The translations under genes were made by a program, and so were the position numbers. The notes beneath the pieces are model-generated. The model was not told the origin of the DNA, ran no database searches, and was given only the letters and a program-made list of their open reading frames with translations. A stretch of 64,000 bases of DNA. It comes from Malacoraja senta. Taxonomy: Eukaryota. The DNA is taken from the NCBI GenBank assembly GCA_038087875.1, contig CM075991.1, positions 13,704,001 through 13,768,000 of the forward strand. The letters run 5' to 3'. Shown here in pieces: positions 1 to 61,300 of this stretch; the stretch's first letter is position 1, and every line of letters starts with the position of its first letter.

Positions 1-2064
1 TCGTTAGGGTTTAGGGTCGTTAGGGTTTAGGGTCGTTAGGGTTTAGGGTCGTTAGGGTTTAGGGGTCGTTAGGGTTTAGGGTCGTTAGGGTTTAGGGTCG
101 TTAGGGTTTAGGGTCGTTAGGGTTTAGGGTCGTTAGGGTTTAGGGTCGTTAGGGTTTAGGGTCGTTAGGGTTTAGGGTCGTTAGGGTTTAGGGTCGTTAG
201 GGTTTAGGGTCGTTAGGGTTTAGGGTCGTTAGGGTTTAGGGTCGTTAGGGTTTAGGGTCGTTAGGGTTTAGGGTCGTTAGGGTTTAGGGTTTAGGTTTTG
301 GGTCGTTAGGGTTTAGGGTCGTTAGGGTTTAGGGTCGTTAGGGTTTAGGGTCGTTAGGGTTTAGGGTCGTTAGGGTTTAGGGTCGTTAGGGTTTAGGGTC
401 GTTAGGGTTTAGGGTCGTTAGGTTTAGGGTCGTTAGGGTTTAGGGTCGTTAGGGTTTTAGGGTCGTTAGGGTTTAGGGTCGTTAGGGTTTAGGGTCGTTA
501 GGGTTTAGGGTCGTTAGGGTTTAGGGTCGTTAGGGTTTAGGGTCGTTAGGGTTTAGGGTCGTTAGGGTTTAGGGTCGTTAGGGTTTAGGGTCGTTAGGGT
601 TTAGGGTCGTTAGGGTTTAGGGTCGTTAGGGTTTAGGGTCGTTAGGGTTTAGGGTCGTTAGGGTTTAGGGTCGTTAGGGTTTAGGGTCGTTAGGGTTTAG
701 GGTCGTTAGGGTTTAGGGTCGTTAGGGTTTAGGGTCGTTAGGGTTTAGGGTCGTTAGGGTTTAGGGTCGTTAGGGTTTAGGGTCGTTAGGGTTTAGGGTC
801 GTTAGGGTTTAGGGTCGTTAGGGTTTAGGGTCGTTAGGGTTTAGGGTCGTTAGGGTTTAGGGTCGTTAGGGTTTAGGGTCGTTAGGGTTTAGGGTCGTTA
901 GGGTTTAGGGTCGTTAGGGTTTAGGGTCGTTAGGGTTTAGGGTCGTTAGGGTTTAGGGTCGTTAGGGTTTAGGGTCGTTAGGGTTTAGGGTCGTTAGGGT
1001 TTAGGGTCGTTAGGGTTTAGGGTCGTTAGGGTTTAGGGTCGTTAGGGTTTAGGGTCGTTAGGGTTTAGGGTCGTTAGGGTTTAGGGTCGTTAGGGTTTAG
1101 GGTCGTTAGGGTTTAGGGTCGTTAGGGTTTAGGGTCGTTAGGGTTTAGGGTCGTTAGGGGTTTAGGGTCGTTAGGGTTTAGGGTCGTTAGGGTTTAGGGT
1201 CGTTAGGGTTTAGGGTCGTTAGGGTTTAGGGGTCGTTAGGGTTTAGGGTCGTTAGGGTTTAGGGTCGTTAGGGTTTAGGGTCGTTAGGGTTTAGGGTCGT
1301 TAGGGTTTAGGGTCGTTAGGGTTTAGGGGTCGTTAGGGTTTAGGGTCGTTAGGGTTTAGGGTCGTTAGGGTTTAGGGTCGTTAGGGTTTAGGGTCGTTAG
1401 GGTTTAGGGTCGTTAGGGTTTAGGGTCGTTAGGGTTTAGGGTCGTTAGGGTTTAGGGTCGTTAGGGTTTAGGGTCGTTAGGGTTTAGGGTCGTTAGGGTT
1501 TAGGGTCGTTAGGGTTTAGGGTCGTTAGGGTTTAGGGTCGTTAGGGTTTAGGGTCGTTAGGGTTTAGGGTCGTTAGGGTTTAGGGTCGTTAGGGTTTAGG
1601 GTCGTTAGGGTTTAGGGTCGTTAGGGTTTAGGGTCGTTAGGGTTTAGGGTCGTTAGGGTTTAGGGTCGTTAGGGTTTAGGGTCGTTAGGGTTTAGGGTCG
1701 TTAGGGTTTAGGGTCGTTAGGGTTTAGGGTCGTTAGGGTTTAGGGTCGTTAGGGTTTAGGGTCGTTAGGGTTTAGGGTCGTTAGGGTTTAGGGTCGTTAG
1801 GGTTTAGGGTCGTTAGGGTTTAGGGTCGTTAGGGTTTAGGGTCGTTAGGGTTTAGGGTCGTTAGGGTTTAGGGGGGTTAGGGTTTAGGGGGTTAGGGTTT
1901 AGGGGGGTTAGGGTTTAGGGGGGTTAGGGTTTAGGGGGGTTAGGGTTTAGAGGGGTTAGGGTTTAGAGGGGTTAGGGTTTAGAGGGGTTAGGGTTTAGAG
2001 GGTTAGGGTTTAGAGGGGTTAGGGTTTAGAGGGGTTAGGGGTTAGGGTTAGGGTTAGGGTTAGG
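1..2064 (+). repeat. Telomere-variant tandem array: (TCGTTAGGGTTTAGGG)n 16-mer to ~1870, then 16-mer variants TTAGGGTTTAGGGGGG and TTAGGGTTTAGAGGGG, ending in ~4 canonical TTAGGG
   Basis: Read directly. G-rich strand is on +, the 16-bp period is kept across variants, and canonical TTAGGG occurs at ~2035-2064. Confidence 0.97.
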
Positions 2065-2257
2065 TTGTGATTTATCGGACAGTGGGACAACATGCCCTCT
2101 GGTGCTTATTGATCTCCCCCTGGGGATTCCTTTTCACTGTGTACTGTCACTTGGTATTTGGCCCACGGTTTCATCACCCTTGTCCAAATCTATTTGCCTT
2201 ACACTTGCCCTTCCATAGATTTGTGCGAGTCAGTCAGGATCCACCCTAGGTTTGAGT

Positions 2258-3153
2258 TTATGCTAGATTTAGGCCATTAGGCTCTTTTGTCTGTAGCGCT
2301 TCTATCCATAGCCTCTCTGCTCTCTTGCGTCTCCCTGTTGTTGCCAGTGGATTGAGGTAGTGGTCAATGTATTCTGCTACCCCATAGGATTCGCTACTAC
2401 AGTCTGACACTATGGGCCTACCTGGCGGTATTTCTCCAGGCACTGTCCACGTGTCTGGGTTTTTGTGTATCTTTGGGAGCATGTAGAATTTCCTCGCCCT
2501 GGGTTGTGTTCCTGTTAGGTATTCTACTTGTTTCTCTAGGATGTATCCTGATGTCTTAAGCTCTTCCAAAATGTCCCCTATTTCCTTTTGTGTTTCTTTA
2601 TATATGGGCTCATCTAACTTAGTGTAGTGTTCTATCTTGTTCAGTTGTCTATGTGCCTCGAAGAGGTACTGTTGTCTGTCCATGATAACTATACTGCTCC
2701 CCTTGTCTGCTGGTTTGATCACTATCTCGTTATTATCTCTCAGCTCTGTCAAGGCCTGCCTCTCTTTTCTGGTGATGTTGGACTTATCTTTTGTTGTGGG
2801 CATATCCTCAATGGCTGATGCCTGTCTCTGTTATAAATTCTGTTATCTGTCCAGGGACATCCTCGTCGTCTGGGGTCCACCCTGTGAGTGGCCTAAAGGG
2901 TATAATTTCTGCAGGGCTCTGCGCCACTGAAGTGGTGTATTAACTTAATGGATCGGTAAAATCTGTGTAGGTCCCCCTGCACTTGTTCCTTGTGGGATTT
3001 GGGAGTAGGGACGAAGGTGAGGCCTCTGTTCAATACCCTCTCTTGGGTTTCGGTAAGGGAGAATGTTTGAGAAAGGTTGATGATTGTTTTCCCTAATTGT
3101 GGGCCCTGCCTCTCTTGGCATGGTGTCCCTAACAGTTTAAATGCTTCATCCAC
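2258..3153 (-). pseudogene. PLE ORF2, copy 1 (internally deleted RT/GIY-YIG; two 1-bp indels versus consensus)
   Basis: Motifs IINLS..LTETQERVLNRGLTFVPTP, IKPADKGSSIVIMD, FYMLPKIHK and PGRPIVS, then directly ERLWIEALQTKEPNGLN*. Confidence 0.85.
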
Positions 3154-4908
3154 TCTCTGATCATGGCTCGGGCTGTGGGTTCTGTCCAGTGGATGTGGTC
3201 TACGTTTACTTTAAACTGGCTGGTGGGGATAGTGGGAATGTGTTTCTGGGTCTGTATGTAGTCATTAAGCTTTCTGAGTGTGACCTGCTCTGGTGCTGGG
3301 AGAGACTGGCTGAAGTTGATCATAGGGACCCATATGCTGGCATTAGGGAATTTACGACTGGCCATCTTGATTAGTGTTTGGAGTTGTTTGATGGCAGTCT
3401 GTGGTCTTTGTTCCTTATTGTTAATGCCAAACGAGAGAATGACTTTTTGAGTTTCTGGGCATTGGATCAATTTGTCAAGGATGGAAGTGCCATGTATGCA
3501 TTTGGCTCCTGGATAGCTGTCCAATTGTATGTTGTTGTTGTTGGAGAATTTGGGGATCCTGGCAATGTTGGAATCTCCAATTATTAAAACAGGCTTGCTG
3601 GGTTGTAGTTTCCAGGTAACATTTTTCTGACATGTGTGTGGGTGTTTAGTTACTTCAGCCAGTCTCTTCCCTGGACCCCTCTGTGTGTGCTGCTGAAAGT
3701 CGTCCTGAGAGTTACTGACTGTGTCTGTAGTCGGGGCCCTCTGGTGCTGTGTGCAGGCCCTACGTGCTGGTCTAACCCTCGGTGCTGGGACCCCCTGTGT
3801 TAGAGTGGAAAGGGTTGGTGTGAGGGAAGGGGTAGCAGTACCGGACCTGTTTCCCTGTGGTACCGCGGTCGTGACCTCCTTTCCGGTTGTCTCCGTGGTC
3901 GGTTCGGTCTCCCCCCTGGAGGGTCTGCGCTCGGCCCGTGGTCTCCGGGGGAGAGGGCCGTGGGATTCGTGGCGTGAGGAGATGCTCCGGTAGATAAGGG
4001 CGGATGTGCTGGGGGAATCGGAGCGCGTGGGCCGTGTCCAGTCATCCGACCAGGTCTCGGTCTCGGACCGGAAGTGGGCCTGGGGCTCGTGTACCGGGGG
4101 GACCGGCTGGGCCGGCTGCTGCGGTCGCAACACCACGATCTGGGGGCTGTTGGGGGGGGTTATGTCGGGGCTGGCGGGAGCGGAGCCGTGGGCGGCGCGG
4201 CCGCGGGGAGCGGGGCCGCGGGGAGCGGAGCGGGACGCGCTCTGGACGGGGTCGGGACGGGTGGTGACCCAAGCGGTGCGTGGCCGCTCGATCTGGCTTT
4301 CCTGTGAAATAGTAAACAAGTCTTGCGGGATATTTACTGCCACATTCGACGTTACAGCCGCTGGCCTACGGGGCTGGGCCTCCCGTAGGCTGCTGCGCTG
4401 TTCAGGCCCAGTCTCTGAGGTCAGGTTCAAAACTCGATGTCTGAGGTCCTCCAATCTGATTTTAAATTTATCTCCCAAATTTCTCTTGTTCCAGATTAGG
4501 GCCTTGGCGACCGCTTCCTGTACACGATCCGTAGGTTGGCCCTCACGGTATTCATCCTCAAGATGCTCCAGACTATTTTGGTAATGTTCAATCAAAATTT
4601 GTCGTGTTTGTTTAGCCCAGGTTTCAGCATTAGAAGCTAATTTTTTTAATGTTTCCTGGGTGGGATTTGCTGGTTTTACAAAGTATGTTAATATCTTGGC
4701 CTGCCTCGTGATACCCTTAGGGGGTACGTTCCGTTCCTTTAGAACTCCTAGATGGTGTAAAGCCTGGGCCATTTTATAAATAACTCTAACAGCAACTGCA
4801 AAGGAATCCCTCTGTCTAGATTGATTCCTGTGCTGGTTGCGATTCACCCCATTAACTGTTGTTAAACAATCCCCTTCTCCCCCCTTCCCTCTGCATGCCA
4901 GAACTCAT
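3129..4908 (-). CDS. PLE ORF1, copy 1 (SGNH/GDSL esterase-domain protein; 1-bp insertion near 4854 versus copy 2)
   Basis: Protein matches 9277..11055. ATG at 4908 is put out of frame by an extra A (attaactgtt versus attactgtt). Confidence 0.85.
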
Positions 4909-5045
4909 TTCTGGCCTAGTCGATTATGCTGTAATGCTAATACAGACAAATCGAAGTATCAATTATCTCTAGCGTCGTAGGGTTAACACCAAGGTGCTCA
5001 CCAATTCTTTGGTTATTTGCCAGCTCGCGGAGACCGCTTGCCGAA

Positions 5046-5108
5046 CTCTTCCCGACTGGGCAACGATTTTCCAGTTTCGCTATCACTGTAGCTTCGTCAG
5101 GGAAAGAG
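5046..5108 (-). ncRNA. Type I hammerhead ribozyme (copy 1)
   Basis: Minus strand reads CUCUUUCC-CUGACGA-A-GCUA(CAGUGA)UAGC-GAAA-CUGG(AAAAUCGUUGC)CCAG-UC^GGGAAGAG. All three stems pair, the core is canonical, and GUC cleavage is predicted between 5054 and 5053. Confidence 0.93.
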
Positions 5109-5442
5109 ATCTAGTCCTAGCCGGTTAGGGTTTTTAAAGGGTAGGTTGATGCTCCTCCCTTTCTGGGTGGAGCTTGCCATGTGTTGGGTCCTAGGACCGG
5201 TCACTTTGGTTGGGCACACCCTGTTTCTTGTTTGGACTGGTTAGCCCTCTTCCTTTGTTGTGTTAGTTACCACATGTCTCTGGTATCTTGTATCCTTTAT
5301 TGCTAATGTTTTCAGCCTCTGTTGATCAATAAATGTGCAAAAATCTCTTGTCCACTATTATGTTCTGCAAGTCTTTAAGTTGTGTCTGTGCTCTGCCAAC
5401 ATGTTTCTAGTCTGTGTGACGCCAAAGGCTCTTCTGGGTAGG

Positions 5443-7884
5443 GGATCCTGGCTGGGGTAGGGGTGGGTATCGTGTTGTGGATTTGTCAGGGTCTCCTCCC
5501 TCTCTTTCGTGCCTGTCTGGTCTATGTGGACGTTTGGTAGGTTCCTCGTATAATGGCTGCTAGGGGGTTGGGGGGGGGTTTCTGGGTAGTTCGGGGTGTT
5601 TTTTGGGGTTGTTTGGGGTGATTCGGTGGGGGTCTGCTGTTAGGTTTAGGTTGTAGGGGAGGGGGGGTTTATCAGTTGTTTAGGGGGAATGTTTTGGGTT
5701 GTTCGGGTTGTTTTTTTAGGGTTGTTTGGGGTGATTCAGTGGGGTCTACTGTTAGGTTTAGGTTGTAGGGGATGGGGGGGGTTTATCTGTTTTTTGTGGG
5801 GGATGTTTTGGGTTGTTCGGGTGTTTTTTTGGGTTTGGGGCGATTCAGTGGGGTCTGCTGTTGGGGTTAGGGTAGTAGGGCAGGGGGGGGGGGGTTTATC
5901 AGTTATATTGGGGAAATGTTTTGGGTTTGGGGTGTTCTTTGGGGTGATCCAGTGGTGTCTGCGCATTAGGTTTAGGTTGTAGGGGGGGGGGTTTCCTTTG
6001 TTTGGGGGAGATGTTTTGAGTTTTTCGGGGTGTTTCTTTTGTTGTTTGGGGTGAGGGGGTCCTGGCTAGGGTAGGGGTGGGTATCGTGTTGTGGATTTGT
6101 CAGGGTCTCCTCCCTCTCTTTCGTGCCTGTCTGGTCTATGTGGACGTTTGGTAGGTTCCTCGTATAATGGCTGCTAGGGGGTTGGGGGGTTTTCTCTGGG
6201 TAGTTCGGGGTGTTTTTTGGGGTTGTTTAGGGTGATTCGGTGGGGGTCTGCTGTTAGGTTTAGGTTGTAGGGGAGGGGGGGGGTTTTCAGTTGTTTAGGG
6301 GGGATGTTTTGGGTTGTTTTTTAGGGTTGTTTGGGGTGATTCAGTGGGGTCTACTGTTAGGTTTAGGTTGTAGGGGATGGGGGGGGTTTATCTGTTGTTT
6401 GTGGGGGATGTTTTGGGTTGTTCGGGTGTTTTTTTGGTTTTGGGGCGATTCAGTGGGGTCTGCTGTTGGGGTTAGGGTAGTAGGGCAGGAGGGGGTTTAT
6501 CAGTTATATTGGGGAAATGTTTTGGGTTTGGGGTGTTCTTTGGGGTGATCCAGTGGTGTCTGCGCATTAGGTTTAGGTTGTAGGGGGGGGGGGGGTTTCT
6601 TTGTTTGGGGGAGATGTTTTGAGTTTTTCGGGGTGTTTCTTTTGTTGTTTGGGGTGAGGGGGTCCTGGCTAGGGTAGGGGTGGGTATCGTGTTGTGGATT
6701 TGTCAGGGTCTCCTCCCTCTCTTTCGTGCCTGTCTGGTCTATGTGGGCGTTTGGTAGGTTCCTCGTATAATGGCTGCTAGGGGGTTGGGGGGTTTTCTCT
6801 GGGTAGTTCGGGGTGTTTTTTGGGGTTGTTTGGGGTGATTCGGTGGGGGTCTGCTGTTAGGTTTAGGTTGTAGGGGAGGGGGGGGTTTATCAGTTGTTTA
6901 GGGGGGATGTTTTGGGTTGTTTTTTAGGGTTGTTTGGGGTGATTCAGTGGGGTCTACTGTTAGGTTTAGGTTGTAGGGGATGGGGGGGTTTATCTGTTGT
7001 TTGTGGGGGATGTTTTGGGTTGTTCGGGTGTTTTTTTGGTTTTGGGGCGATTCAGTGGGGTCTGCTGTTGGGGTTAGGGTAGTAGGGCAGGAGGGGGGTT
7101 TTATCAGTTATATTGGGGAAATGTTTTGGGTTTGGGGTGTTCTTTGGGGTGATCCAGTGGTGTCTGCGCATTAGGTTTAGGTTGTAGGGGGGGGGGGGGG
7201 GGTTCCTTTGTTTGGGGGAGATGTTTTGAGTTTTTCGGGGTGTTTCTTTTGGTTGTTTGGGGTGAGGGGGTCCTGGCTAGGGTAGGGGTGGGTATCGTGT
7301 TGTGGATTTGTCAGGGTCTCCTCCCTCTCTTTCGTGCCTGTCTGGTCTATGTGGGCGTTTGGTAGATTCCTCGTATAATGGCTGCTAGGGGGTAGGGGGG
7401 TTTTCTCTGGGCAGTTCGGGGTGTTTTTTGGGGTTGTTTGGGGTGATTCGGTGGGGGTCTGCTGTTAGGTTTAGGTTGTAGGGGAGGGGGGTTTATCAGT
7501 TGTTTAGGGGGATGTTTTGGGTTGTTCGGGTTGTTTTTTAGGGTTGTTTGGGGTGATTCAGTGGGGTCTACTGTTAGGTTTAGGTTGTAGGGGATGGGGG
7601 GGGGGGTTTATCTGTTGTTTGTGGGGGATGTTTTGGGTTGTTCGGGTGTTTTTTTGGGTTCGGGGCGATTCAGTGGGGTCTGCTGTTGGGGTTAGGGTAG
7701 TAGGGCAGGGGGGGGGGGAGTTTATCAGTTATATTGGGGAAATGTTTTGGGTTTGGGGTGTTCTTTGGGGTGATCCAGTGGTGTCTGCGCATTAGGTTTT
7801 AGGTTGTAGGGGAGGAGGGGGGCTCCGTTGTTTGGGGGAGATGTTTTGAGTTTTTCGGGGTGTTTCTTTTGTTGTTTGGGGTGA
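5443..7884. repeat. Four tandem ~605-bp G/T-rich repeats made of ~120-bp subrepeats with degenerate telomere-like motifs
   Basis: Units start at ~5443, 6057, 6660 and 7268 (TCCTGGCT.GGGTAGGGGTGGGTATCG). Recurrent TTAGGTTTAGGTTGTAGGGG, GGGGTTAGGGTAG and TTTAGGG. Confidence 0.93.
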
Positions 7885-8406
7885 TTCAGTGGGGTCTGCT
7901 GGGGGGGGGGCCTATCCGTGGTTTGGTTATGATTATCATGGGGTGAGTTGTGCTTTGCCTATCCAGTCTGACCATCCTTTGGCTCCCTCTCTGGTCCTCC
8001 CTGTCTCCCTATCCTAGTTTTAGAGTGTCCCTCACTTCAATCCTATGATTATTCGAGCCCACTCTATTTCGGTTTGTACTGTTATTCTCCATCATCCCCC
8101 CTTTGGTTTGGGTTTCACCCTCCTGACTCCATTTGAATCTTTTCTTGTGGCCTGCTCCTTCTGCGGTTTTGATTTGCCTGAGTGATGAAGCCCGTGTCAC
8201 TGTAAAGGTTAGGTTGTGATTTATCGGACAGTGGGACAACATGCCCTCTGGTGCTTATTGATCTCCCCCTGGGGATTCCTTTTCACTGTGTACTGTCACT
8301 TGGTATTTGGCCCACGGTTTCATCACCCTTGTCCAAATCTATTTGCCTTACACTTGCCCTTCCATAGATTTGTGCGAGTCAGTCAGGATCCACCCTAGGT
8401 TTGAGT

Positions 8407-9301
8407 TTATGCTAGATTTAGGCCATTAGGCTCTTTTGTCTGTAGCGCTTCTATCCATAGCCTCTCTGCTCTCTTGCGTCTCCCTGTTGTTGCCAGTGGA
8501 TTGAGGTAGTGGTCAATGTATTCTGCTACCCCATAGGATTCGCTACTACAGTCTGACACTATGGGCCTACCTGGCGGTATTTCTCCAGGCACTGTCCACG
8601 TGTCTGGGTTTTTGTGTATCTTTGGGAGCATGTAGAATTTCCTCGCCCTGGGTTGTGTTCCTGTTAGGTATTCTACTTGTTTCTCTAGGATGTATCCTGA
8701 TGTCTTAAGCTCTTCCAAAATGTCCCCTATTTCCTTTTGTGTTTCTTTATATATGGGCTCATCTAACTTAGTGTAGTGTTCTATCTTGTTCAGTTGTCTA
8801 TGTGCCTCGAAGAGGTACTGTTGTCTGTCCATGATAACTATACTGCTCCCCTTGTCTGCTGGTTTGATCACTATCTCGTTATTATCTCTCAGCTCTGTCA
8901 AGGCCTGCCTCTCTTTTCTGGTGATGTTGGACTTATCTTTTGTTGTGGGCATATCCTCAATGGCTGATGCTGTCTTCTGTTATAAATTCTGTTATCTGTC
9001 CAGGGACATCCTCGTCGTCTGGGGTCCACCCTGTGAGTGGCCTAAAGGGTATAATTTCTGCAGGCTCTGCGCCACTGAAGTGGTGTATTAACTTAATGGA
9101 TCGGTAAAATCTGTGTAGGTCCCCCTGCACTTGTTCCTTGTGGGATTTGGGAGTAGGGACGAAGGTGAGGCCTCTGTTCAATACCCTCTCTTGGGTTTCG
9201 GTAAGGGAGAATGTTTGAGAAAGGTTGATGATTGTTTTCCCTAATTGTGGGCCCTGCCTCTCTTGGCATGGTGTCCCTAACAGTTTAAATGCTTCATCCA
9301 C
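8407..9301 (-). CDS. PLE ORF2, copy 2: RT N-terminal region fused in frame to the GIY-YIG C-terminal tail (~297 aa consensus; one 1-bp frameshift near 8975)
   Basis: ORF-track pieces 8957..9301 and 8407..8952. RT motifs A/B/C (DxxSLY, QxxGxxMG, YxDD) are absent. Overlaps the ORF1 stop by 25 nt. Confidence 0.85.
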
Positions 9302-11055
9302 TCTCTGATCATGGCTCGGGCTGTGGGTTCTGTCCAGTGGATGTGGTCTACGTTTACTTTAAACTGGCTGGTGGGGATAGTGGGAATGTGTTTCTGGGTC
9401 TGTATGTAGTCATTAAGCTTTCTGAGTGTGACCTGCTCTGGTGCTGGGAGAGACTGGCTGAAGTTGATCATAGGGACCCATATGCTGGCATTAGGGAATT
9501 TACGACTGGCCATCTTGATTAGTGTTTGGAGTTGTTTGATGGCAGTCTGTGGTCTTTGTTCCTTATTGTTAATGCCAAACGAGAGAATGACTTTTTGAGT
9601 TTCTGGGCATTGGATCAATTTGTCAAGGATGGAAGTGCCATGTATGCATTTGGCTCCTGGATAGCTGTCCAATTGTATGTTGTTGTTGTTGGAGAATTTG
9701 GGGATCCTGGCAATGTTGGAATCTCCAATTATTAAAACAGGCTTGCTGGGTTGTAGTTTCCAGGTAACATTTTTCTGACATGTGTGTGGGTGTTTAGTTA
9801 CTTCAGCCAGTCTCTTCCCTGGACCCCTCTGTGTGTGCTGCTGAAAGTCGTCCTGAGAGTTACTGACTGTGTCTGTAGTCGGGGCCCTCTGGTGCTGTGT
9901 GCAGGCCCTACGTGCTGGTCTAACCCTCGGTGCTGGGACCCCCTGTGTTAGAGTGGAAAGGGTTGGTGTGAGGGAAGGGGTAGCAGTACCGGACCTGTTT
10001 CCCTGTGGTACCGCGGTCGTGACCTCCTTTCCGGTTGTCTCCGTGGTCGGTTCGGTCTCCCCCCTGGAGGGTCTGCGCTCGGCCCGTGGTCTCCGGGGGA
10101 GAGGGCCGTGGGATTCGTGGCGTGAGGAGATGCTCCGGTAGATAAGGGCGGATGTGCTGGGGGAATCGGAGCGCGTGGGCCGTGTCCAGTCATCCGACCA
10201 GGTCTCGGTCTCGGACCGGAAGTGGGCCTGGGGCTCGTGTACCGGGGGGACCGGCTGGGCCGGCTGCTGCGGTCGCAACACCACGATCTGGGGGCTGTTG
10301 GGGGGGGTTATGTCGGGGCTGGCGGGAGCGGAGCCGTGGGCGGCGCGGCCGCGGGGAGCGGGGCCGCGGGGAGCGGAGCGGGACGCGCTCTGGACGGGGT
10401 CGGGACGGGTGGTGACCCAAGCGGTGCGTGGCCGCTCGATCTGGCTTTCCTGTGAAATAGTAAACAAGTCTTGCGGGATATTTACTGCCACATTCGACGT
10501 TACAGCCGCTGGCCTACGGGGCTGGGCCTCCCGTAGGCTGCTGCGCTGTTCAGGCCCAGTCTCTGAGGTCAGGTTCAAAACTCGATGTCTGAGGTCCTCC
10601 AATCTGATTTTAAATTTATCTCCCAAATTTCTCTTGTTCCAGATTAGGGCCTTGGCGACCGCTTCCTGTACACGATCCGTAGGTTGGCCCTCACGGTATT
10701 CATCCTCAAGATGCTCCAGACTATTTTGGTAATGTTCAATCAAAATTTGTCGTGTTTGTTTAGCCCAGGTTTCAGCATTAGAAGCTAATTTTTTTAATGT
10801 TTCCTGGGTGGGATTTGCTGGTTTTACAAAGTATGTTAATATCTTGGCCTGCCTCGTGATACCCTTAGGGGGTACGTTCCGTTCCTTTAGAACTCCTAGA
10901 TGGTGTAAAGCCTGGGCCATTTTATAAATAACTCTAACAGCAACTGCAAAGGAATCCCTCTGTCTAGATTGATTCCTGTGCTGGTTGCGATTCACCCCAT
11001 TACTGTTGTTAAACAATCCCCTTCTCCCCCCTTCCCTCTGCATGCCAGAACTCAT
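9277..11055 (-). CDS. PLE ORF1, 592 aa: helical N-terminus, Pro/Arg/Thr-rich linker, C-terminal SGNH/GDSL esterase
   Basis: Uninterrupted ORF with SGNH blocks VLIIGDSN, SYPGA, ILSFGINN and VDHIHW. Confidence 0.9.
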   Translation of the reverse strand: MSSGMQREGGRRGLFNNSNGVNRNQHRNQSRQRDSFAVAVRVIYKMAQALHHLGVLKERNVPPKGITRQAKILTYFVKPANPTQETLKKLASNAETWAKQTRQILIEHYQNSLEHLEDEYREGQPTDRVQEAVAKALIWNKRNLGDKFKIRLEDLRHRVLNLTSETGPEQRSSLREAQPRRPAAVTSNVAVNIPQDLFTISQESQIERPRTAWVTTRPDPVQSASRSAPRGPAPRGRAAHGSAPASPDITPPNSPQIVVLRPQQPAQPVPPVHEPQAHFRSETETWSDDWTRPTRSDSPSTSALIYRSISSRHESHGPLPRRPRAERRPSRGETEPTTETTGKEVTTAVPQGNRSGTATPSLTPTLSTLTQGVPAPRVRPARRACTQHQRAPTTDTVSNSQDDFQQHTQRGPGKRLAEVTKHPHTCQKNVTWKLQPSKPVLIIGDSNIARIPKFSNNNNIQLDSYPGAKCIHGTSILDKLIQCPETQKVILSFGINNKEQRPQTAIKQLQTLIKMASRKFPNASIWVPMINFSQSLPAPEQVTLRKLNDYIQTQKHIPTIPTSQFKVNVDHIHWTEPTARAMIREWMKHLNC

Positions 11056-11192
11056 TTCTGGCCTAGTCGATTATGCTGTAATGCTAATACAGACAAATCG
11101 AAGTATCAATTATCTCTAGCGTCGTAGGGTTAACACCAAGGTGCTCACCAATTCTTTGGTTATTTGCCAGCTCGCGGAGACCGCTTGCCGAA

Positions 11193-11255
11193 CTCTTCCC
11201 GACTGGGCAACGATTTTCCAGTTTCGCTATCACTGTAGCTTCGTCAGGGAAAGAG
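11193..11255 (-). ncRNA. Type I hammerhead ribozyme (copy 2)
   Basis: Identical to 5046-5108. Predicted cleavage is 145 nt upstream of the ORF1 ATG. Confidence 0.93.
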
Positions 11256-11594
11256 ATCTAGTCCTAGCCGGTTAGGGTTTTTAAAGGGTAGGTTGATGCT
11301 CCTCCCTTTCTGGGTGGAGCTTGCCATGTGTTGGGTCCTAGGACCGGTCACTTTGGTTGGGCACACCCTGTTTCTTGTTTGGACTGGTTAGCCCTCTTCC
11401 TTTGTTGTGTTAGTTACCACATGTCTCTGGTATCTTGTATCCTTTATTGCTAATGTTTTCAGCCTCTGTTGATCAATAAATGTGCAAAAATCTCTTGTCC
11501 ACTATTATGTTCTGCAAGTCTTTAAGTTGTGTCTGTGCTCTGCCAACATGTTTCTAGTCTGTGTGACGCCAAAGGCTCTTCTGGGTAGGGGATC

Positions 11595-11794
11595 NNNNNN
11601 NNNNNNNNNNNNNNNNNNNNNNNNNNNNNNNNNNNNNNNNNNNNNNNNNNNNNNNNNNNNNNNNNNNNNNNNNNNNNNNNNNNNNNNNNNNNNNNNNNNN
11701 NNNNNNNNNNNNNNNNNNNNNNNNNNNNNNNNNNNNNNNNNNNNNNNNNNNNNNNNNNNNNNNNNNNNNNNNNNNNNNNNNNNNNNNNNNNNNN
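11595..11794. other. Assembly/scaffold gap (200 N)
   Basis: Run of exactly 200 N. Confidence 0.99.
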
Positions 11795-21177: not shown

Positions 21178-21404
21178 GTAAGGGTATCTTCAATCTGCTG
21201 ATTCCCTGCAGCATGGGATGGGAGGATTCATTCCAGAGATGTAATAAATAATTTACAGCATCCAAAGGGAGCATTGACTGCGGGTAACGGTGCAGAGGCT
21301 TCACTCTGAGTAAGTTGTCACCCACTCAACATCAAACTCATTCCGCGCGCTGCTCTGTTGATTTCTCTATCAGCAGTTTCCTGGGTCCACGGAAGTTAGA
21401 ACAT

Positions 21405-22207
21405 GTGAGGTTATCCACTTGGTGGCAAAAACAGGAAAGCAGACTATTATCTAAATGGTGGCCGATTAGGAAAAGGGGAGATGCAACGAGACCTGGGTGT
21501 CATGGTACACCAGTCATTGAAAGTAGGCATGCAGATGCGGCAGGCAGTGAAGAAAGCGAATGGTATGTTAGCATTCATAGCAAAAGGATTTAAGTATAGG
21601 AGCAGGGAGGTTCTACTGCAGTTGTACAGGGTCTTGGTAAGACCACACCTGGAGTATTGCGTACAGTTTTGGTCTCCAAATCTGAGGAAGGACATTATTG
21701 CCATAGAGGGTGTGCAGAGAAGGTTCACCAGACTGATTACTGGGATGTCAGGACTTTCATATGAAGAAAGATTGGATAGACTCGGCTTGTACTCGCTAGA
21801 ATTTAGGAGATTGAGGGGGGATCTTATAGAAACTTACAAAATTCTTAAGGGGTTGGACAGGTTAGATGCAGGAAGATTGTTCCCGATGTTGGGGAAGTCC
21901 AGGACAAGGGGTCACAGCTTAAGGATAGAGGGGAAATCCTTTAGGGCCGAGATGAGAAAAACCTTTTTCACACAGAGAGTGGTGAATCTCTGGAACTCTC
22001 TGCCACAGAAGGTAGTTGAGGCCAGTTCATTGGCTATATTTAAGAGGGAGTTAGATGTGGCCCTTGTGGCTAAAGGGATCAGGGGGTATGGAGAGAAGGC
22101 GGGTACGGGATACTGAGTTGGATGATCAGCCATGATCATATTGATTGGCGGTGCAGGCTCGAAGGGCCGAATGGCCTACTCCTGCACCTATTTTCTGTGT
22201 TTCTATG
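21405..22207 (+). mobile_element. CR1/HER1-like LINE 3' fragment (intronic)
   Basis: RDLGV...LYRVLVRPHLEYCVQFWSP...RRLRGDLIETYK, followed by the 3' UTR GAAGGGCCGAATGGCCTACTCCTGC. Confidence 0.92.
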
Positions 22208-23664
22208 TAACAAACAACAGTGCGGCGCACAAACAGGCCTTTCTGCCCACAATACCGCGCCGCACATAATGCCAAGTTGAACTAATCTGCTCTGCCTGTC
22301 CTTGTTATTCCCTTCCATTCCCCGCATTGCATATGCCGATGGAAAAGCCTTCTAAATGTCAATATTCTATCTCCCTCTACGCCAACCCTGGCAGCATGTT
22401 TCAGGCACCCGCCACTCCCTGTGTGAGAAACTTGGCACGGACATCTTCTTTAATCTTTGCCTCTCTCACCGTAAAGCTGGGGTGGAAGATTGCAACCTTC
22501 ACGTGGTCCGCCCTGTTTCGACTAATGCAATCAACTCGACGTGCACAAACGGAAGATCAAATAGAACAAGTTGTCCAACAACTTTAGGCTGTGCACGCCA
22601 CACGAAAGAAGAAGTCCGTAAAGCTCTGCCCTCTCGTGATTAAAAATTGCGCCACTATTCAATCTGTTCTGCGCCCACTCCAAAGCCTCCACATTCTTGC
22701 AGGAACGGGGCGACCAGAACTGCACACAGTACAGCAAATGCGCCCTAACCTAATTAAAGCTGAAACGTGACTTCCTGACTCTTATACTCATTTCCCCGAC
22801 AGAGGAAGGCAAGCATACCTAACGCCTTCTTTACAACTCTATCTCATTGTGTGCCTACAGTCGTCTACAATTCCAGAAACGTCTTTCGTAAAACGCACGT
22901 TTGCGTTGAATAGCAACTCCCTCACATTATAACCTGCAATGTGAGCATCTATCAATGAGGAACATATCCCCTTTCATACATTCAAATGCATTAGGATATA
23001 CGAATAATTTAGATTTGGATTTAAATTTAATTTGAATATACAAATAATTGTAGTTACAAGCTCAAGTTCACGCATTTTTATCTTTCGGGAAACGGAAGGG
23101 TAGACCATCCAGATTCCCCGATTATGCACTTGACGTTACACACTTATAATGGGTATTATGACTGTGAAACGTCATTTTGACGTGCTGGAAAATTATTTTT
23201 TCTCATGAAATTCTGCCAATTTCACTTTCAGGCTTTAACTCTCGAAATTATTCTCCCATATATTTTCACATTTGGATTTCTCGTATTGCGTGCTGTGATT
23301 TTAATCATGATTCTACATAACCTACCCATTGAAACCGATAGATCCAAATTATATGCCATGCAGCTTCTAAACGTCCATGTCCGCTCTGTGGTACACGCAT
23401 GTTTCAAGAACATTTCCTAGACCGCAGAACATTTCACCGCCAGATGCATATTCCCCTCCCCACCACTTTCGGTAATTTGACTGAACAGCTCACTTTGTGA
23501 TGACCTGACGCAGTTATTTTTCCCAACTAACCCTCGCTGATGAGTGTTTTCCGGCGATTTGTTTTGTTAAACTAGATGCGCGTTTTTGTTCAGCGACAAA
23601 GAATCTTTGCTGGCTGTTGATGGAAACATTGTGATGATCTATATATTACCCGCTTCGTTCACAG

Positions 23665-26679: not shown

Positions 26680-29600
26680 ACATAGATACATAGAAAATAG
26701 GTGCAGGAGTAGGCCATTCGGCCCTTCGAGCCTGCACCGCCATTCAATATGATCATGGCTGATCATCCAACTCAGTATCCCGTACCTGCCTTCTCTCCAT
26801 ACCCCCTGATCCCTTTAGCCACAAGGGCCACATCTAACTCCCTCTTACATATAGCCAATGAACTGGCCTCAACTACCCTCTGTGGCAGAGAGTTCCAGAG
26901 ATTCACCACTCTCTGTGTGAAAAAGTTTTTTCTCATCTCGGTCTTAAAGGATTTCCCCCTTATCCTTAAGCTGTGACCCCTTGTCCTGGACTTCCCCAAC
27001 ATCGGGAACAATCTTCCTGCATCTAGCCTGTCCAACCCTATAAGAAATTTGTACGTTTCTATAAGATCCCCTCTCAATCTCCTAAATTCTAGCGAGTATA
27101 AGCCAAGTCTATCCAGTCTTTCTTCATATGAATGTCCTGACATCCCAGGAATCAGTCTGGTGAACCTTCTCTGCACTCCCTCTATGGCTATAATGTCCTT
27201 CCTCAGATTTGGAGACCAAAACTGTACACAATACTCCAGGTGTGGTCTCACCAAGACCCTGTACAACTGCAGTAGAACCTCCCTGCTCCTATACTCAAAT
27301 CCTTTTGCTATGAAAGCTAACATACCATTCGCTTTCTTCACTGCCTGCTGCACCTGCATGCCTACTTTCAATGACTGGTGTACCATGACACCCAGGTCTC
27401 GCTGCATCTCCCCTTTTCCTAATCGGCCACCATTTAGATAATAGACTTCTTTCCTGTTTTTGCCACCAAAGTGGATAACCTCACATTTATCCACATTATA
27501 CTGCATCTGCCAAACATTTGCCCACTCACCCAGCCTATCCAAGTCACCTTGCAGTCTCCTAGCATCCTCCTCACAGCTAACACTGCCCCCCAGCAGTGTC
27601 ATCCGCAAACTTGGAGATGTTGCCTTCAATTCCCTCATCCAGTTCATTAATATAAATTATAAATAGCTGGGGTCCCAGCACTGAGCCTTGCGGTACCCCA
27701 CTAGTCACTGCCTGCCATTGTGAAAAGGACCCGTTTACTCCTACTCTTTGCTTCCTGTTTGCCAGCCCATTCTCTATCCACATCAATACTGAACCCCCAA
27801 TACCGTGTGCTTTAAGTTTGTATACTAATCTCTTATGTGGGACCTTGTCGAAAGCCTTCTGAAAGTCCAGATACAACACATCCACTGGTTCTCCCTTATC
27901 CACTCTACCAGTTACATCCTCGAAAAATTCTATAAGATTCGTCAGACATGATTTACCTTTCGTAAATCCATGCTGACTTTGTCCAATGATTTCACCACTT
28001 TCCAAATGTGCTGCTATCCCATCTTTAGTAACTGACTCTAGCAGTTTCCCCACTACCGATGTTAGCCTAACTGGTTTGTAATTCCCCGTTTTCTCTCTTC
28101 CTCCCTTCTTAAAACGTGGGGTTACATTTGCTACCCTCCAATCCTCAGGAACTACTCCAGAATCTAAAGAGTTTTGAAAAATTATCACTAATGCATCCAC
28201 TGTTTCTGGAGCTACTTCCTTAAGTACTCTGGGATGCAGCCTATCGGGCCCTGGTGATTTATCTGCCTTTAATCCATTCAATTTACCCAACACCACTTCC
28301 CAACTAACCTGGATTTCACTCAGTTCCTCCATCTCCTTTGACCCGCGGTCCCCTGCTATTTCCGGCAGATTATTTATGTCTTCCTCAGTGAAGACGGAAC
28401 CAAAGTAGTTATTCAATTGGTCCGCCATATCCTTGTTCCCCATGATCAATCCACCTGTTTCTGACTGCAAGGGACCTACATTTGTTTTAACTAATCTCTT
28501 TCTCTTCACATATCTATAAAAACTTTTGCAGTCAGTTTTTATGTTCCCTGCCAGTTTTCTTTCATAATCTATTTTCCCTTTCCTAATTAAGCCCTTTGTC
28601 CTCCTCTGCTGGGCTCTGAATTTCTCCCAGTCCTCTGGTATGCTGCTTTTTCTGGCCAATTTGTACGCATTGATACTATCCCTGATTTGCCTTGTTATCC
28701 ACGGATGCACTACCTTCCCTGATTTATTCTTTTGCCAAACTGGGATGAACAATTTTTGTAGTTCATCCATGCAGTCTTTAAATGCCTTCCATTGCATATC
28801 CACCGTCAACCCTTTTAGAACTAATTGCCAGTCAATCTTGGCCAATTCACGTCTCATACCCTCAAAGTTACCTTTCTTTAAGTTCAGAACTGTTGTTTCT
28901 TAATTAACAATGTCACTCTCCATCCTAATGAAGAACTCAACCATATTATGGTCACTCTTGCCCAAGGGGGCACGCACAACAAGACTGCTAACTAACCCTT
29001 CCTCATTACTCAATACCCAGTCTAGAATAGCCTGCTCTCTCGTTGGTTCCTCTACATGTTGGTTTAGATAACTATCCCACATACATTCCAAGAAATCCTC
29101 TTCCTCAGCACCCCTGCCAATTTGATTCACCCAATCTATATGTAGATTGAAGTCACCCATTATAACTGTTTTGCCTTTGTTGCACGCATTTCTAATTTCC
29201 TGTTTGATGCCATCCCCAACTTCACCACTACTGCTAGGTGGCCTGTACACAACACCCACCAGCGTTTTCTGCCCCTTAGTGTTTCGCAGCTCTACCCATA
29301 CCGATTCCACATCCTCCAAGCTAATGTCCTTCCTTTCCACTGCGTTAATCTCCTCTCTAACCAGCAACGCTACCCCACCTCCTTTTCCTTTCTCTCTATC
29401 CCTCCTGAATATTGAATATCCCTGGATGTTCAGCTCCCAGCCTTGGTCACCCTGGAGCCATGTCTCCGTGATCCCAACTATATCATAATCATTAATAGCT
29501 ATCTGCACGTTCAACTCATCCACCTTATTACGAATGCTCCTTGCATTGAGACACAAAGCCTTCAGGCTTGTTTTTACAACGCTCTTACCCCTTATACAAT

Positions 29601-31153
29601 TATGTTGAAAAGTGGCCCTTTTTGATATTTGCCCTGGATTTGTCTGCCTGTCACTTTTACTTTTCACCTTGCTACCTATTGCTTCCGCCCGCATTTTACA
29701 CCCCTCTGTTTCTCTGCTCACCCATTTAAGAACCCCACCACCTCTTATTCTCTGTTTATTATTGTTTTCTTCTTTCCCCCCTACATGTTGGGTCTGAGTG
29801 CTTTCCTTCTCTGCCTCCTGCCTCACACACTGTCTAATAGCTTTCTCTATTTGAGTCCCTCCCCCCAACCATTCTAGTTTAAAGTCTCCCCAGTAGCCTT
29901 TGCAGATCTCCCAGCCAGGATATCGGTTCCCCTCAGGTTCAACTGCAACCCATCCTTTTTGTACAGGTCGCACCTTCCACAAAAGAGGTCCCAATGATCC
30001 AGAAATTTGAATCCCTGCCCTCTGCACCAGTCCTTCAGCCACGCATTTATCCTCCACCTCGCTCCATTCCTACTCTCACTGTCGCGTGGCACAGGCAGTA
30101 ATCCCGAGATTGTTACCTTTGCTGTCCTACTCTTTAACTCATCCTCCTAACTCCCTAAATTCTCCTTTCAGGACCTCTTCTCTTTTTTTACCTATGTCAT
30201 TGGTACCTATATGTACCACGACCTCAGGCTCCTCTCCCTCCCCTTTCAGGATATCTTGGACACGTTGAGACACATCACAGACCCTGGCACCAGGGAGGCA
30301 AACTACCATCCGGGTCTCCCGACTGCGTCCACAGAATCGCCTGTCTGACCCCCTAACTATAGAGTCCCCTATTAGTATTGCCCTCCTCTTCTTTTCCTTA
30401 CCCTTCTGAGCAACAAGACCGGTCTCTGTACTGGAGGCCCGGCCGCTGTCGCTACCCCCAGGTAGGCTGTCCCCCCCAACAGTGCTCAAACAGGAGTACT
30501 TATTGTCAAGGTGTACAGCCACCGGGGTACTCTCTAGTCCCTGCCTGTGCCCCTTGCTTCTCCAAACCGTGATCCACTTGCCTGCCTCCTGTGGTCTTGG
30601 AGTGACCACCTCCCTGTAACTCCTCTCAATGACTTCCTCGCTCTCCCTGACCAGACGGAGGTCATCGAGCTGCTGCTCCAGGTTCCTAATACGGTCCCTT
30701 AGGAGCCCCATCTCGATACACCTGGCGCAGATGTGGACGTCTGGAGGGCTATCAGACTCGGTGACTTCCCACATCTGACATCCAGAACAGTAAACTGCCC
30801 TGGCCCTCATACTCCCCTTACCCTGGATACAATACATCTGACATCCAGAACAGTAAACTGCCCTGGCCCTCATACTCCCCCCTTACCCTGGATACAATAC
30901 ATCTGACATCCAGAACAGTAAACTGCCCTGGCCCTCATACTCCCCTTACCCTGGATACAATACATCTGACATCCAGAACAGTAAACTGCCCTGGCCCTCA
31001 TACTCCCCTTACCCTGGATACAATACATCTGACATCCAGAACAGTAAACTGCCCTGGCCCTCATACTCCCCTTACCCTGGATACAATACATCTGACATCC
31101 AGAACAGTAAACTGCCATGGCCCTCATACTCCCCTTACCCTGGATACAATACA
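26680..31153 (-). mobile_element. Near full-length CR1/HER1-like LINE in the SRCR gene intron: ORF1 (Zn finger plus SGNH esterase), APE endonuclease and RT, with several frameshifts
   Basis: ORF1: [80 protein letters not shown]. Confidence 0.95.
30771..31153. repeat. Six tandem 63-bp repeats at the LINE 5' end
   Basis: Units start at 30771, 30834, 30899, 30962, 31025 and 31088. Each encodes MRARAVYCSGCQMYCIQGKGS on -. Confidence 0.95.
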
Positions 31154-49009: not shown

Positions 49010-50281
49010 TGTGGCCCCTGGTTCTGGACTCGCCCAACATTGGGAACATTGTTCCTGCATCTAGCTTGTCCAGACAGTCCTTTTATAATTTTATATGTTT
49101 CTATAAGATCTCCCCTCATCCTTCTAAACTATAGTGAATACAAGCCTAGTCTTTTCAATCTTTCCTCATATGACAGTCCCGCCATCCCAGGGATCAATCT
49201 CGTGAACCTACGCTGCACTGCCTCAATCACAAGGATGTCCTTCCTCAAATTAGGAGACCAAAACTGTACACAATACTCCAGATGTGGTCTTACCAGAGCC
49301 CTATGCAACTGCAGAAGAACCTCTCTACTACTATACTGAAATCCTCTTGTTATGAAGGCCAACATTCCATTAGCTTTCTTCACTGCCTGCTGTACCTGCA
49401 CGCCAACTATCAGTGTCCGGTGTACAAAGACACCCAGGTCTCGCTGTACATCCCCCTTACCTAACCTAACCCCACTGAGATAATAGGTGCAGGAGTAGGC
49501 CATTCGGCCCTTCGAGCTAGCACCACCATTCAATGTGATCATGGCTGATCATCCCCAATCAGTAACCCGTTCCTGCCTTCTCCCCATATCCCCTGACTCC
49601 GCTATCTTTAAGAGCCCTATCTAGCTCTCTCTTGTAAGTATCCAGAGAACCGGCCTCCACCGCCCACTGAGGCAGAGATTTCCACAGACTCAAACTCTCT
49701 GTGAGAAAAAGTGTTTCTTCGTCTCCGTTCTAAATGGCTTACCCCTTATTCTTAAACTGTGGCACCTGGTTCTGGACTCCCCCAACATCGGGAACATTTT
49801 TCCTGCCTCTAGCGTGTCCAAACCCTTAACAATCTTATATGTTTCAATAAGATACCCTCTCATCCTTCTAAACTCCAGAGTGTACAAGCGCAGCCACTCC
49901 ATTCTCTCAGCATATGACAGTTCCGCCATCCCGGGAATTAACCTTGTAAACCTACGCTGCACTCCCTCAATAGCAAGAATGTCCTTCCTCAAATTAGGGG
50001 ACCAAAACTGCACACAATACTCCATGTGTGGTCTCACTAGGGCTCTGTACAACTGCAGAAGGACCTGTTTGCTCCTATACTCGACTCCCCTTGTTATAAA
50101 AGCCAACATGCCATTCGCTTTCTTCACTGCCTGCTGTACCTGCATGCTTACTTTCATAGACTGATGAACAAGGACCACCAAATCCTGTTGTACTTCCCCT
50201 TTTCCCAACTTGATGCTATTTAGATAGTGATCTGCCTTCCTGTTTTTGCTACCAAAGTGGATAACCTCACACTTATCCACA
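49010..50281 (-). mobile_element. Two adjacent CR1/HER1-like LINE fragments
   Basis: ORFs 49129..49542 and 49690..50280 carry RPH(L/M)EYCVQFWSP motifs. Confidence 0.9.
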
Positions 50282-50291
50282 TTTCCTTGTG

Positions 50292-51017: not shown

Positions 51018-51019
51018 AA

Positions 51020-60661: not shown

Positions 60662-61300
60662 TTGCTAATGGAATGTTGGCCTTCATAACAAGAGGATTTC
60701 AGTATAGGAGTAAAGAGGTTCTTCTGCAGTTATATAGGGCTCTGGTGAGACCACATCTGGAGTATTGTGTACAGTTTTGGACTCCTAATTTGAGGAAGGA
60801 CAACCTTGTGATTGAGGCAGTGCAGCGTAGGTTCACGAGATTGATCCCTGGGATGGCGGGACTGTCATAGGAGGAAAGATTGAAAAGACTAGGCTTGTAT
60901 TCACTGGAGTTTAGAAGGATGAGGGGAAAATCTTATAGAAACATATAAAATTATAAAAGGACTGGACAAGCTAGATGCAGGAAAAATGTTCCCAATGTTG
61001 GGCGAGTCCAGAACCAGGGGCCACAGTCTTAGAATAAAGGGGAGGTCATTTAAGACTGAGGTGAGAAAAACGTTTTCATCCAGAGAGTTGTGAATTTATA
61101 GGAATTCCCTGCAACAGAGGGCAGTGGAGGCCAAGTCACTGGATGGATTTAAGAGAGAGTTAGATAGAGCTCTAGGGGCTAGTGGAGTCAAGGGATATGG
61201 GGAGAAGGCAGGCACAGGTTATTGATAGGGGACAATCAGCCATGGTCACAATGAAGGGCCAAATGGCCTCCTCCTGCACCTATTTTCTCTGTTTCTATGT
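60662..61300 (+). mobile_element. CR1/HER1-like 3' fragment
   Basis: MLAFITRGFQYRSKEVLLQLYRALVRPHLEYC. Confidence 0.9.

What the first reader, a model, noticed from the sequence alone, without database searches (positions are those of the whole stretch)
5046..5108. Full three-stem type I hammerhead ribozyme defines unit-length RNA of the array
Seen: 8-bp stem I (one G-U pair), CUGACGA, 4-bp stem II, GAAA, stem III with an 11-nt loop and a GUC cleavage site. It is identical at 11193-11255. Established: PLE terminal repeats carry hammerheads, usually minimal dimer-dependent ones; this one looks monomer-competent. Inference: read-through transcripts are cut into ~6147-nt monomers (11200 to 5054). 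Each would have a 145-nt leader before ORF1 and the telomere-like repeats in its 3' UTR, and might circularise.
Basis: partly seen in the sequence, partly recalled or inferred. Interest (0 to 1): 0.75.

Follow-up and report, generated by a model that had tools for sequence, protein, structure and literature searches.

The report
Full-stem hammerhead in telomeric Neptune retroelement
A complete hammerhead ribozyme motif sits between tandem copies of a defective Penelope-type retrotransposon joined to telomere repeats; unlike the dimer-dependent motifs usual in these elements it is predicted to cut on its own, though nearby sequence likely switches it off in much of the RNA.

Summary
Observation confirmed, on the minus strand: 8-bp stem I, CUGACGA, 4-bp stem II, GAAA, 5-bp stem III, GUC site; identical at 11193-11255. 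The host is a Neptune-type Penelope-like element: esterase ORF1, conserved -1 slippery site, and an ORF2 lacking 443 residues of RT/GIY-YIG. It is joined to telomeric repeats at 2058. PLE hammerheads and the cleave-and-circularise idea are published (2014). The unusual part holds: 40 of 77 related loci carry minimal palindromic hammerheads and none a long stem III, though these relatives are distant. Three findings weaken the monomer story. Natural flanks are predicted to fold across the cut site (helix probability 0.7 to 0.02-0.05, with a brief co-transcriptional window). The copy's 3' end lies 3.1 kb from the cut. Both junctions are seamless, so the template spanned the cut: uncut RNA, a circle, or DNA duplication. 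No cleavage or RNA-end data exist. The scan noted PLE hammerheads before in fungi, rotifers and a protist, but no look-alike sequence. Verdict: new variant of a known kind.

The parts
5046..5108 (-). Type I hammerhead motif, copy 1; predicted cut between 5054 and 5053; extra A at 5093
11193..11255 (-). Type I hammerhead motif, copy 2 (identical); predicted cut between 11201 and 11200
5109..5132 (-). Upstream segment (AACCCUAACC telomere-complementary 10-mer overlapping CCGGCU) predicted to pair across the cut site and block the active fold
   Evidence: prediction only
5016..5045 (-). Downstream segment: can extend stem I while nascent, then is predicted to form its own hairpin and release the upstream blocker
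   Evidence: prediction only
11056..11200 (-). 145-nt AUG-free leader between the cut site and ORF1
9277..11055 (-). ORF1, 592 aa, C-terminal SGNH/GDSL esterase-like domain; ends in UUUAAAC slippery site
   Evidence: (PF13472 E 0.005, below cut-off)
8407..9358 (-). ORF2 in the -1 frame, defective: one-base frameshift near 8975 and an in-frame deletion at 8490/8491 fusing the RT N-terminus to the last 27 residues of the GIY-YIG domain
5436..7901 (-). About four 603-614-bp C/A-rich repeats (about 110-bp subrepeats) in the 3353-nt 3' UTR, each with a 10-nt telomere-complementary stretch
2058..5053 (-). Second, 3'-terminal partial unit (ORF1 3129-4908 broken by a one-base insertion at 4854; same ORF2 deletion); ends at 2058
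1..2059 (+). Telomeric tract, G-rich on +: three canonical TTAGGG (2042-2059) at the junction, grading into a 16-bp variant array (128 copies by TRF); 7-nt microhomology CCTAACC with the element
11595..11794 (.). 200-N assembly gap that cuts the array; the true copy number and the orientation relative to the rest of the window are unknown

Best explanation
This is the terminal-repeat hammerhead motif of a Neptune-type Penelope-like retrotransposon, with a full 5-bp stem III that likely lets it cut as a single copy, but probably in only part of the transcripts, because flanking sequence is predicted to refold across the cut site soon after the motif is transcribed. Shown: the motif, the element's anatomy, the internal deletion, the join to telomeric repeats about 3.1 kb upstream of the cut site, and two scar-free junctions. 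Inferred: (1) cutting happens in a short co-transcriptional window; (2) cut RNA starts 145 nt before ORF1 with an uncapped 5'-OH end and serves as the element's message, ORF2 being reached by -1 frameshifting; (3) RNA that escapes cutting still spans the junction and is the likely template; (4) an intact family member's RT, acting in trans, primed internally at CCUAACC on a telomeric G-rich end and copied at least 1.5 units.
For: Motif and fold. Neptune anatomy: the 95%-identical relative P0014 has RT, a CX4CxxC linker and GIY-YIG; fish Neptune esterases are known (PMC5408684 passage). Long stem III in 0 of 77 relatives against 40 minimal, all 41 minimal motifs with the extra A; P0014 nests among minimal-type rows in a quick tree. 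Fungal PLE motifs with large helix III cleave as monomers (0.16/min at 1 mM Mg; PMC4209133). Helix I/III probability is about 0.7 alone, 0.53-0.57 with 14-16 nt of 3' flank, and 0.03-0.05 from 25 nt on. Natural upstream sequence suppresses the fold more than most shuffles: 3 of 300; 3-7 of 150 for 25-30-nt flanks. Internal priming, and use of unprocessed RNA, were shown in vitro for a Poseidon PLE (PMC11167929). In run X15 depth rises several-fold between about 8075 and 8430, so many family copies appear to end far from the cut site.
Against: No cleavage or RNA-end data. The switch rests on ViennaRNA for one sequence, tested after the fact. The gap is 3.6 kcal/mol and ignores Mg and tertiary contacts. 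Significance fades with longer flanks (14-15 of 150 shuffles at 40-60 nt), and downstream shuffles are never significant (15-55 of 150). No covariation could be scored: read laying hid 518 substitutions and 42 indels. Relatives with visible hammerheads are distant (best RT identity 59%), and 37 of 77 loci show no motif, including the closest L001-L003 and L013. Only one telomere junction is seen; an X1 contig ends at the same base (8207) in non-telomeric DNA.
Confidence: 0.5

Rival explanations
1. Circle model: both ends are cut, the 8-bp stem I re-pairs the monomer's two ends, they are ligated, the alternative fold protects the circle from re-cutting, and rolling-circle reverse transcription from a telomeric primer made the tandem.
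For: Seamless junctions and near-identical units with no substitutions. The stem I duplex is -9.5 kcal/mol, and stem I is longer than in 40 of 41 relative motifs. The inactive fold applies equally to a circle junction. The model was proposed for PLEs in PMC4209133 and shown for small retrozymes (PMC7229834 passages).
Against: Known retrozyme circles are 170-800 nt, against 6-7.5 kb here. No HHR-cut ends were found in RNA-seq for the one PLE tested. There is no RNA evidence here.
Confidence: 0.2
2. One reading: cutting is efficient and most RNA ends up as linear 6147-nt monomers, which are the functional RNA.
For: The core alone folds as a hammerhead. The active fold reaches about 0.55-0.66 while nascent. 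The only AATAAA in the 3' UTR (5301) is fewer than the about 3 expected from base composition (hand calculation), so read-through is plausible.
Against: A linear monomer primed internally gives copies with no ribozyme 5' half, so it cannot explain the array. The flanks are predicted to disfavour the fold in the full transcript.
Confidence: 0.15
3. The ribozyme acts mainly at the 5' end: transcription starts near stem I, the blocker is not transcribed, the cut removes a short capped leader, and this enables cap-independent translation of ORF1, as with R2-type 5' ribozymes.
For: A TATA-like TTTAAAAA lies 23-30 nt upstream of stem I; one X1 loose end has TATAA at a similar distance. Without upstream flank the fold probability is 0.66-0.70. 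The leader has no AUG. Type I hammerhead cleavage promoted cap-independent translation in reporters (PMC13725137 passages).
Against: The TATA-like motif has a mismatch and lies in A-rich DNA; no start-site data exist. X7 contigs (RNA only by guess) have similar depth on both sides of the motif.
Confidence: 0.15
4. The tandem arose at DNA level (unequal exchange or break-induced copying at a telomere), and the ribozyme is an idle passenger in this defective copy.
For: Subtelomeric position, near-identical units sharing one deletion, and internal 600-bp repeats that are themselves tandem expansions. In X15 the main contig at 8491 continues into intact RT, so the deleted form is rare there.
Against: It does not explain the conserved core or the intact stems. 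Partial-tandem structure is the norm for PLE insertions. It concerns this locus, not the family's ribozyme.
Confidence: 0.15

Closest known systems
Minimal type I hammerheads of metazoan PLEs (Xena, Poseidon, Neptune; Cervera and De la Pena 2014, PMC4209133)
   Same: Located in the PLE terminal repeat, type I topology, extra nucleotide between 9 and 10.1, G10.1-C11.1 pair, proposed role in cutting precursor RNA
   Different: Stem III is a 5-bp non-palindromic hairpin with an 11-nt loop rather than a 2-4-nt palindrome; stem I is 8 bp rather than 4-6
Large-helix-III hammerheads of telomere-associated EN- PLEs of fungi and protists (same paper)
   Same: Long helix III, predicted monomer activity, no recognisable loop 1-loop 2 contact, telomeric position
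   Different: Host family is EN+ (GIY-YIG in the intact relative) and, by its named homologs and telomere repeat, vertebrate
Neptune clade PLEs of fish (Craig et al. 2021, PMC8557442; esterase noted in PMC5408684)
   Same: RT plus CX2-5CxxC linker plus C-terminal GIY-YIG in the 95% relative; esterase ORF1; partial tandem with terminal repeat
   Different: Window copies have lost RT core and nuclease; 3.3-kb repeat-rich 3' UTR; joined to telomeric repeats
Athena / Coprina / Terminon telomere-attaching PLEs
   Same: C-rich sense strand, 3' end joined to telomeric repeats through a short reverse-complement stretch, hammerhead present
   Different: In Terminons the stretch lies immediately downstream of the ribozyme (PMC6431247); here the used stretch is about 3.1 kb upstream, and the family encodes an endonuclease
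Non-LTR retrozymes (PMC7229834; bioRxiv 10.64898/2026.07.22.740005)
   Same: Non-autonomous head-to-tail repeats with one type I hammerhead per unit, PLE-derived
   Different: Unit is 6147 bp and encodes ORF1; reported retrozyme units are 51-972 bp and non-coding; no circular RNA shown here

Membership tests
Type I hammerhead ribozyme | Conserved core CUGANGA, GAAA, NUH with three helices, helix I open | tested here: met
   extra A after A9 is the usual PLE variant
Type I hammerhead ribozyme | Match to an Rfam hammerhead covariance model | tested here: not met
   no hit at gathering score or at E<=10 on 4900-5500
Type I hammerhead ribozyme | Self-cleavage at C17 | not testable with these tools
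   only contigs were available; needs an in vitro assay or raw RNA reads
Type I hammerhead ribozyme | Covariation of stems among relatives | tested here: inconclusive
   one search shows one loop-III indel (11215, run X7) and similarity ending at 11170 and 11259 in X1, but most variant letters were not displayed
Canonical (Schistosoma-like) type I hammerhead | 6-bp helix I followed by a loop 1 that contacts loop 2 | tested here: inconclusive
   stem I is 8 contiguous pairs then a U-U mismatch; no tertiary modelling was done
Minimal PLE hammerhead (dimer-dependent) | Helix III absent or a short palindrome | tested here: not met
   5-bp stem with 11-nt loop, -4.1 kcal/mol alone; differs from all 41 relative motifs
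Neptune clade (EN+ PLE) | RT with C-terminal GIY-YIG | tested here: met
   met in relative P0014, 95% identical; window copies keep only the N-terminal part and the last 27 residues
Neptune clade (EN+ PLE) | CX2-5CxxC linker finger between RT and EN | tested here: met
   CX4CxxC in P0014 and P0015; deleted in the window; shared with Nematis
Neptune clade (EN+ PLE) | RT groups with named Neptune references | not tested
   no named references were available; the tree holds only unnamed relatives and one fish-named protein
Athena/Coprina/Terminon (EN- telomeric PLE) | Family lacks an endonuclease | tested here: not met
   GIY-YIG in P0014; intact continuations at 8490/8491 in X15 and X7
Athena/Coprina/Terminon (EN- telomeric PLE) | 3' end joined to telomeric repeats through a reverse-complement stretch | tested here: met
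   one junction at 2058 with a 7-nt microhomology; not adjacent to the ribozyme
Non-LTR retrozyme | Short (<1 kb) non-coding tandem unit | tested here: not met
   6147-bp unit with a 592-aa ORF
Non-LTR retrozyme | Accumulates as circular RNA | not testable with these tools
   circle and tandem junctions are identical in sequence; only contigs were available

The most novel reading that the evidence does not exclude
A vertebrate Neptune lineage has replaced dimer-dependent control of its hammerhead with a monomer-active ribozyme under a co-transcriptional conformational switch. It cuts 6-7.5-kb unit RNAs that circularise, are protected by the alternative fold, and are copied by rolling-circle reverse transcription onto telomeric ends, giving an Athena-like telomere-extending retroelement in a vertebrate.
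Probability: 0.15. Interest if true: 0.75.

Novelty: new variant of a known kind. Interest (0 to 1): 0.42.

Why it matters
The function of PLE hammerheads is an acknowledged open question (PMC8557442, PMC7761336), partly because animal versions barely cleave without a partner copy or protein. A version predicted to work as a monomer, with one cut site per unit, makes the question directly testable: cut ends, circles, translation from the 5'-OH RNA, and whether flanks gate cleavage. If telomere attachment proves typical of the family, it would extend telomere-joining PLEs to vertebrates. As it stands it is one defective locus and a computed fold.

Tried and rejected
Rfam: no hammerhead hit. No whole genome is held, so copy number, other chromosome ends and orientation could not be examined. 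The look-up of sequencing runs: no RNA holder listed; 14 of 18 rows were small-share 'RNA?' guesses. Four runs were laid, all contigs, and no end pile-ups were reported, which contigs cannot show anyway. Viral contigs: 105 pattern matches, none confirmed. Telomere-overhang activation: forcing the 10-nt telomere-complementary stretch (5132-5123) unpaired restored stem III only partly (0.43) and stem I hardly (0.08), whereas windows covering CCGGCU restored both (0.62-0.70), so a telomere-triggered switch is not supported. The downstream-flank effect is not significant against shuffles. My linker-finger pattern count (92 of 110) mostly caught the nuclease's own CxxC and is discarded. My -1 frame translation was out of frame and was not used. 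The tree is the quick one (74 of 77 loci plus 10 proteins, midpoint-rooted). L023 and L054 show minimal motifs but fail the strict census and are not in the 40. Arkhipova 2017 (Terminons) and Lunse 2017 were not available, so a long-stem-III animal PLE motif may be described there or in supplements I could not see. Seven literature searches listed no paper on such a motif or on telomere-joined Neptune in vertebrates; the library is limited to open-licence papers.

Full report
Observation. The motif is real and lies on the minus strand, 5108 to 5046. All stated pairs exist: stem I 8 bp with one U-G, stem II 4 bp, stem III 5 bp with an 11-nt loop, and a GUC site with C17 at 5054. The 63-mer folds as a hammerhead at -17.5 kcal/mol, with 8 of 200 shuffles as stable. 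A descriptor scan of both strands found only the two copies, and 0 hits in 100 random 64-kb sequences. Rfam finds nothing. The copies are identical, but so is almost all of the 3.39-kb overlap (4 one-base indels, no substitutions), so identity says nothing about selection.

The element. Between the cut sites lie 6147 nt: an AUG-free 145-nt leader, ORF1 (11055-9277, 592 aa), ORF2, and a 3353-nt C/A-rich 3' UTR holding about four 603-614-bp repeats. ORF1 ends in a GDSL/SGNH-like domain. The Pfam match is weak (E 0.005), but the GDSN, G-N and D-xHW positions are invariant or nearly so in 14 aligned proteins. ORF2 overlaps ORF1 in the -1 frame and has no Met in its first 133 codons. An in-frame XXXYYYZ heptamer lies just before the ORF1 stop in the window and in 42 of 48 related loci with an esterase ORF1, 34 of them UUUAAAC (no shuffle control). 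So -1 frameshifting is inferred. ORF2 is defective. A 95%-identical 740-aa relative (P0014) has RT, a CX4CxxC linker and GIY-YIG, and the window lacks its residues 271-713. Contigs of runs X15 and X7 continue into intact sequence on both sides of 8490/8491 and lack the extra base at 8975. These features fit the Neptune clade as defined in PMC8557442 (introduction and passages read), and fish Neptune esterases are mentioned in PMC5408684 (passages). Named ORF2 homologs come from fishes. That the SINE and LINE remains beyond the gap look like those of cartilaginous fish is recalled, not tested.

Telomere link. The distal unit ends at 2058, where the element's CCTAACC runs into three canonical repeats and then a 16-bp variant array. 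The G-rich strand is on +, as expected if a telomeric 3' end primed on the element RNA. The stretch 1-11594 ends at a 200-N gap; if position 1 is a scaffold end, this contig is probably flipped. The junction (equivalent to 8207) is about 3.1 kb upstream of the ribozyme cut. One X1 contig ends at the same base in non-telomeric DNA, and X15 depth rises several-fold between about 8075 and 8430, so the family appears to prime internally. The 3' UTR has only five 10-nt telomere-complementary stretches, four in the repeats and one just upstream of stem I. Several related loci also end in or contain CCCTAA runs (L001, L002, L050, L051, L066).

Is the full stem III unusual? Of 77 related loci, 40 carry a hammerhead by a strict census. 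All 41 motifs are on the sense strand, have the extra A and a 4-6-nt palindromic stem III; none has a long one; 37 loci show no motif. P0014 nests among minimal-type rows in a quick tree, so the long stem looks derived. Limits: the best RT identity among motif-bearing loci is 59%, and the closest loci show no motif. Within the family, X7 contigs differ by a one-base deletion in loop III, X1 similarity ends at 11170 and 11259 (close to the motif's edges), and depth over the motif is raised in 3 of 4 runs (X15 about 690 against 265-318; X7 988-1889 against 216-301; X1 81-91 against 6-13; not in X17). Most variant letters were hidden, so covariation is untested. PMC4209133 (parts 1-2 of 4 read) reports minimal motifs in fish Neptune, Poseidon and Xena, and large-helix-III motifs that cleave as monomers in telomeric PLEs of fungi and protists. 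It already proposes precursor cleavage and circles. bioRxiv 10.64898/2026.07.22.740005 (parts 1-3 of 5) derives short vertebrate retrozymes from PLE terminal repeats.

Would it cut in context? Alone, helices I and III form with probability about 0.7. With 30-60 nt of natural flank this falls to 0.01-0.05, and with 100-150 nt it is about 0.3. The cause is an upstream CCGGCU that pairs across the cut site once a downstream hairpin forms. In a 3'-extension series the active fold peaks at 0.53-0.57 at 14-16 nt and drops to 0.03-0.05 from 25 nt. Shuffled upstream flanks are as inhibitory in 3 of 300 and 3-7 of 150 trials for 25-30-nt flanks, but in 14-15 of 150 for 40-60-nt flanks; downstream shuffles are not significant. 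The energy gap is 3.6 kcal/mol, within reach of Mg and tertiary contacts that the program ignores. One X1 loose end keeps the CCGGCUAG octamer while the neighbouring bases differ. This is a prediction, not a result.

Mechanism. Both junctions carry an intact ribozyme, so whatever was copied spanned the cut site. A linear monomer primed internally could not do that. The options are uncut read-through RNA, a circle, or DNA-level duplication. For a Poseidon PLE, RT starts internally, ribozyme mutants insert normally, unprocessed RNA is the main substrate, and no cut ends were seen in RNA-seq (PMC11167929, parts 1-2 of 4). I therefore favour partial, co-transcriptional cutting: cut RNA as message and uncut RNA as template, with RT supplied in trans (0.5). 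Rivals are the circle (0.2), efficient monomer production (0.15), a 5'-end or translation role suggested by PMC13725137 (passages) (0.15), and an idle passenger in a DNA-amplified array (0.15); the last two can coexist with the others. Divergent RT-PCR cannot separate circles from tandem read-through here.

Other papers seen: PMC6431247, PMC7229834, PMC7761336, PMC6155905, PMC12602865 and PMC13159263 as passages. Arkhipova 2017 and Lunse 2017 were not available. The scan's own notes list PLE hammerheads in fungi, a rotifer and a protist and no look-alike sequence.

Verdict. A real hammerhead motif of a known class, in a known kind of element, with an atypical monomer-type stem III, a predicted conformational gate and a single telomere junction. 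New variant of a known kind; interest 0.42.

Noticed in passing
window 9283-9289 (minus strand); L001-L077: UUUAAAC slippery site at the ORF1 end followed by a predicted hairpin; an in-frame slippery heptamer is present in 42 of 48 relatives with an esterase ORF1, pointing to clade-wide -1 frameshifting.
   Followed up: partly
window 1-2059: A 16-bp telomere-variant array (128 copies, 98% matches) is G-rich on the + strand at the window start and grades to canonical repeats at the element junction; the contig may be inverted in its scaffold.
   Followed up: partly
window about 8078-8430: In run X15 this 3' piece has several-fold more depth than ORF1 and shows head-to-tail joints (8408 to 8078, 8427 to 8078): possibly a 330-350-bp non-autonomous tandem derivative without the ribozyme.
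   Followed up: no
window 9058-11259: Run X1 has a contig (depth 61) that skips 9058-10642 and 10727-11170: a possible short, internally deleted, hammerhead-bearing derivative; the matched sides are short (30-55 nt).
   Followed up: no
L001, L002, L050, L051, L066: Endonuclease-bearing relatives with CCCTAA runs in or right after their 3' ends; L051 ends in 15 perfect repeats, suggesting other telomere-joined EN+ lineages.
   Followed up: no
L006, L008, L015, L004: Telomere-like CCCTAA runs lie inside the coding region of these relatives.
   Followed up: no
window 5131-5138 (minus strand): TATA-like TTTAAAAA 23-30 nt upstream of stem I, directly followed by a branch-point-like CCCTAAC; neither was tested.
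   Followed up: no
window 26772-30873 (minus strand): A fragmented LINE with AP endonuclease and RT domains, with related pieces at 21403-22209, 49478-51762, 55035-57846 and 60664-61300.
   Followed up: no
window 30771-31153: A 63-bp minisatellite, 6 copies at 98% identity, overlapping the start of the ORF at 30139-30873.
   Followed up: no
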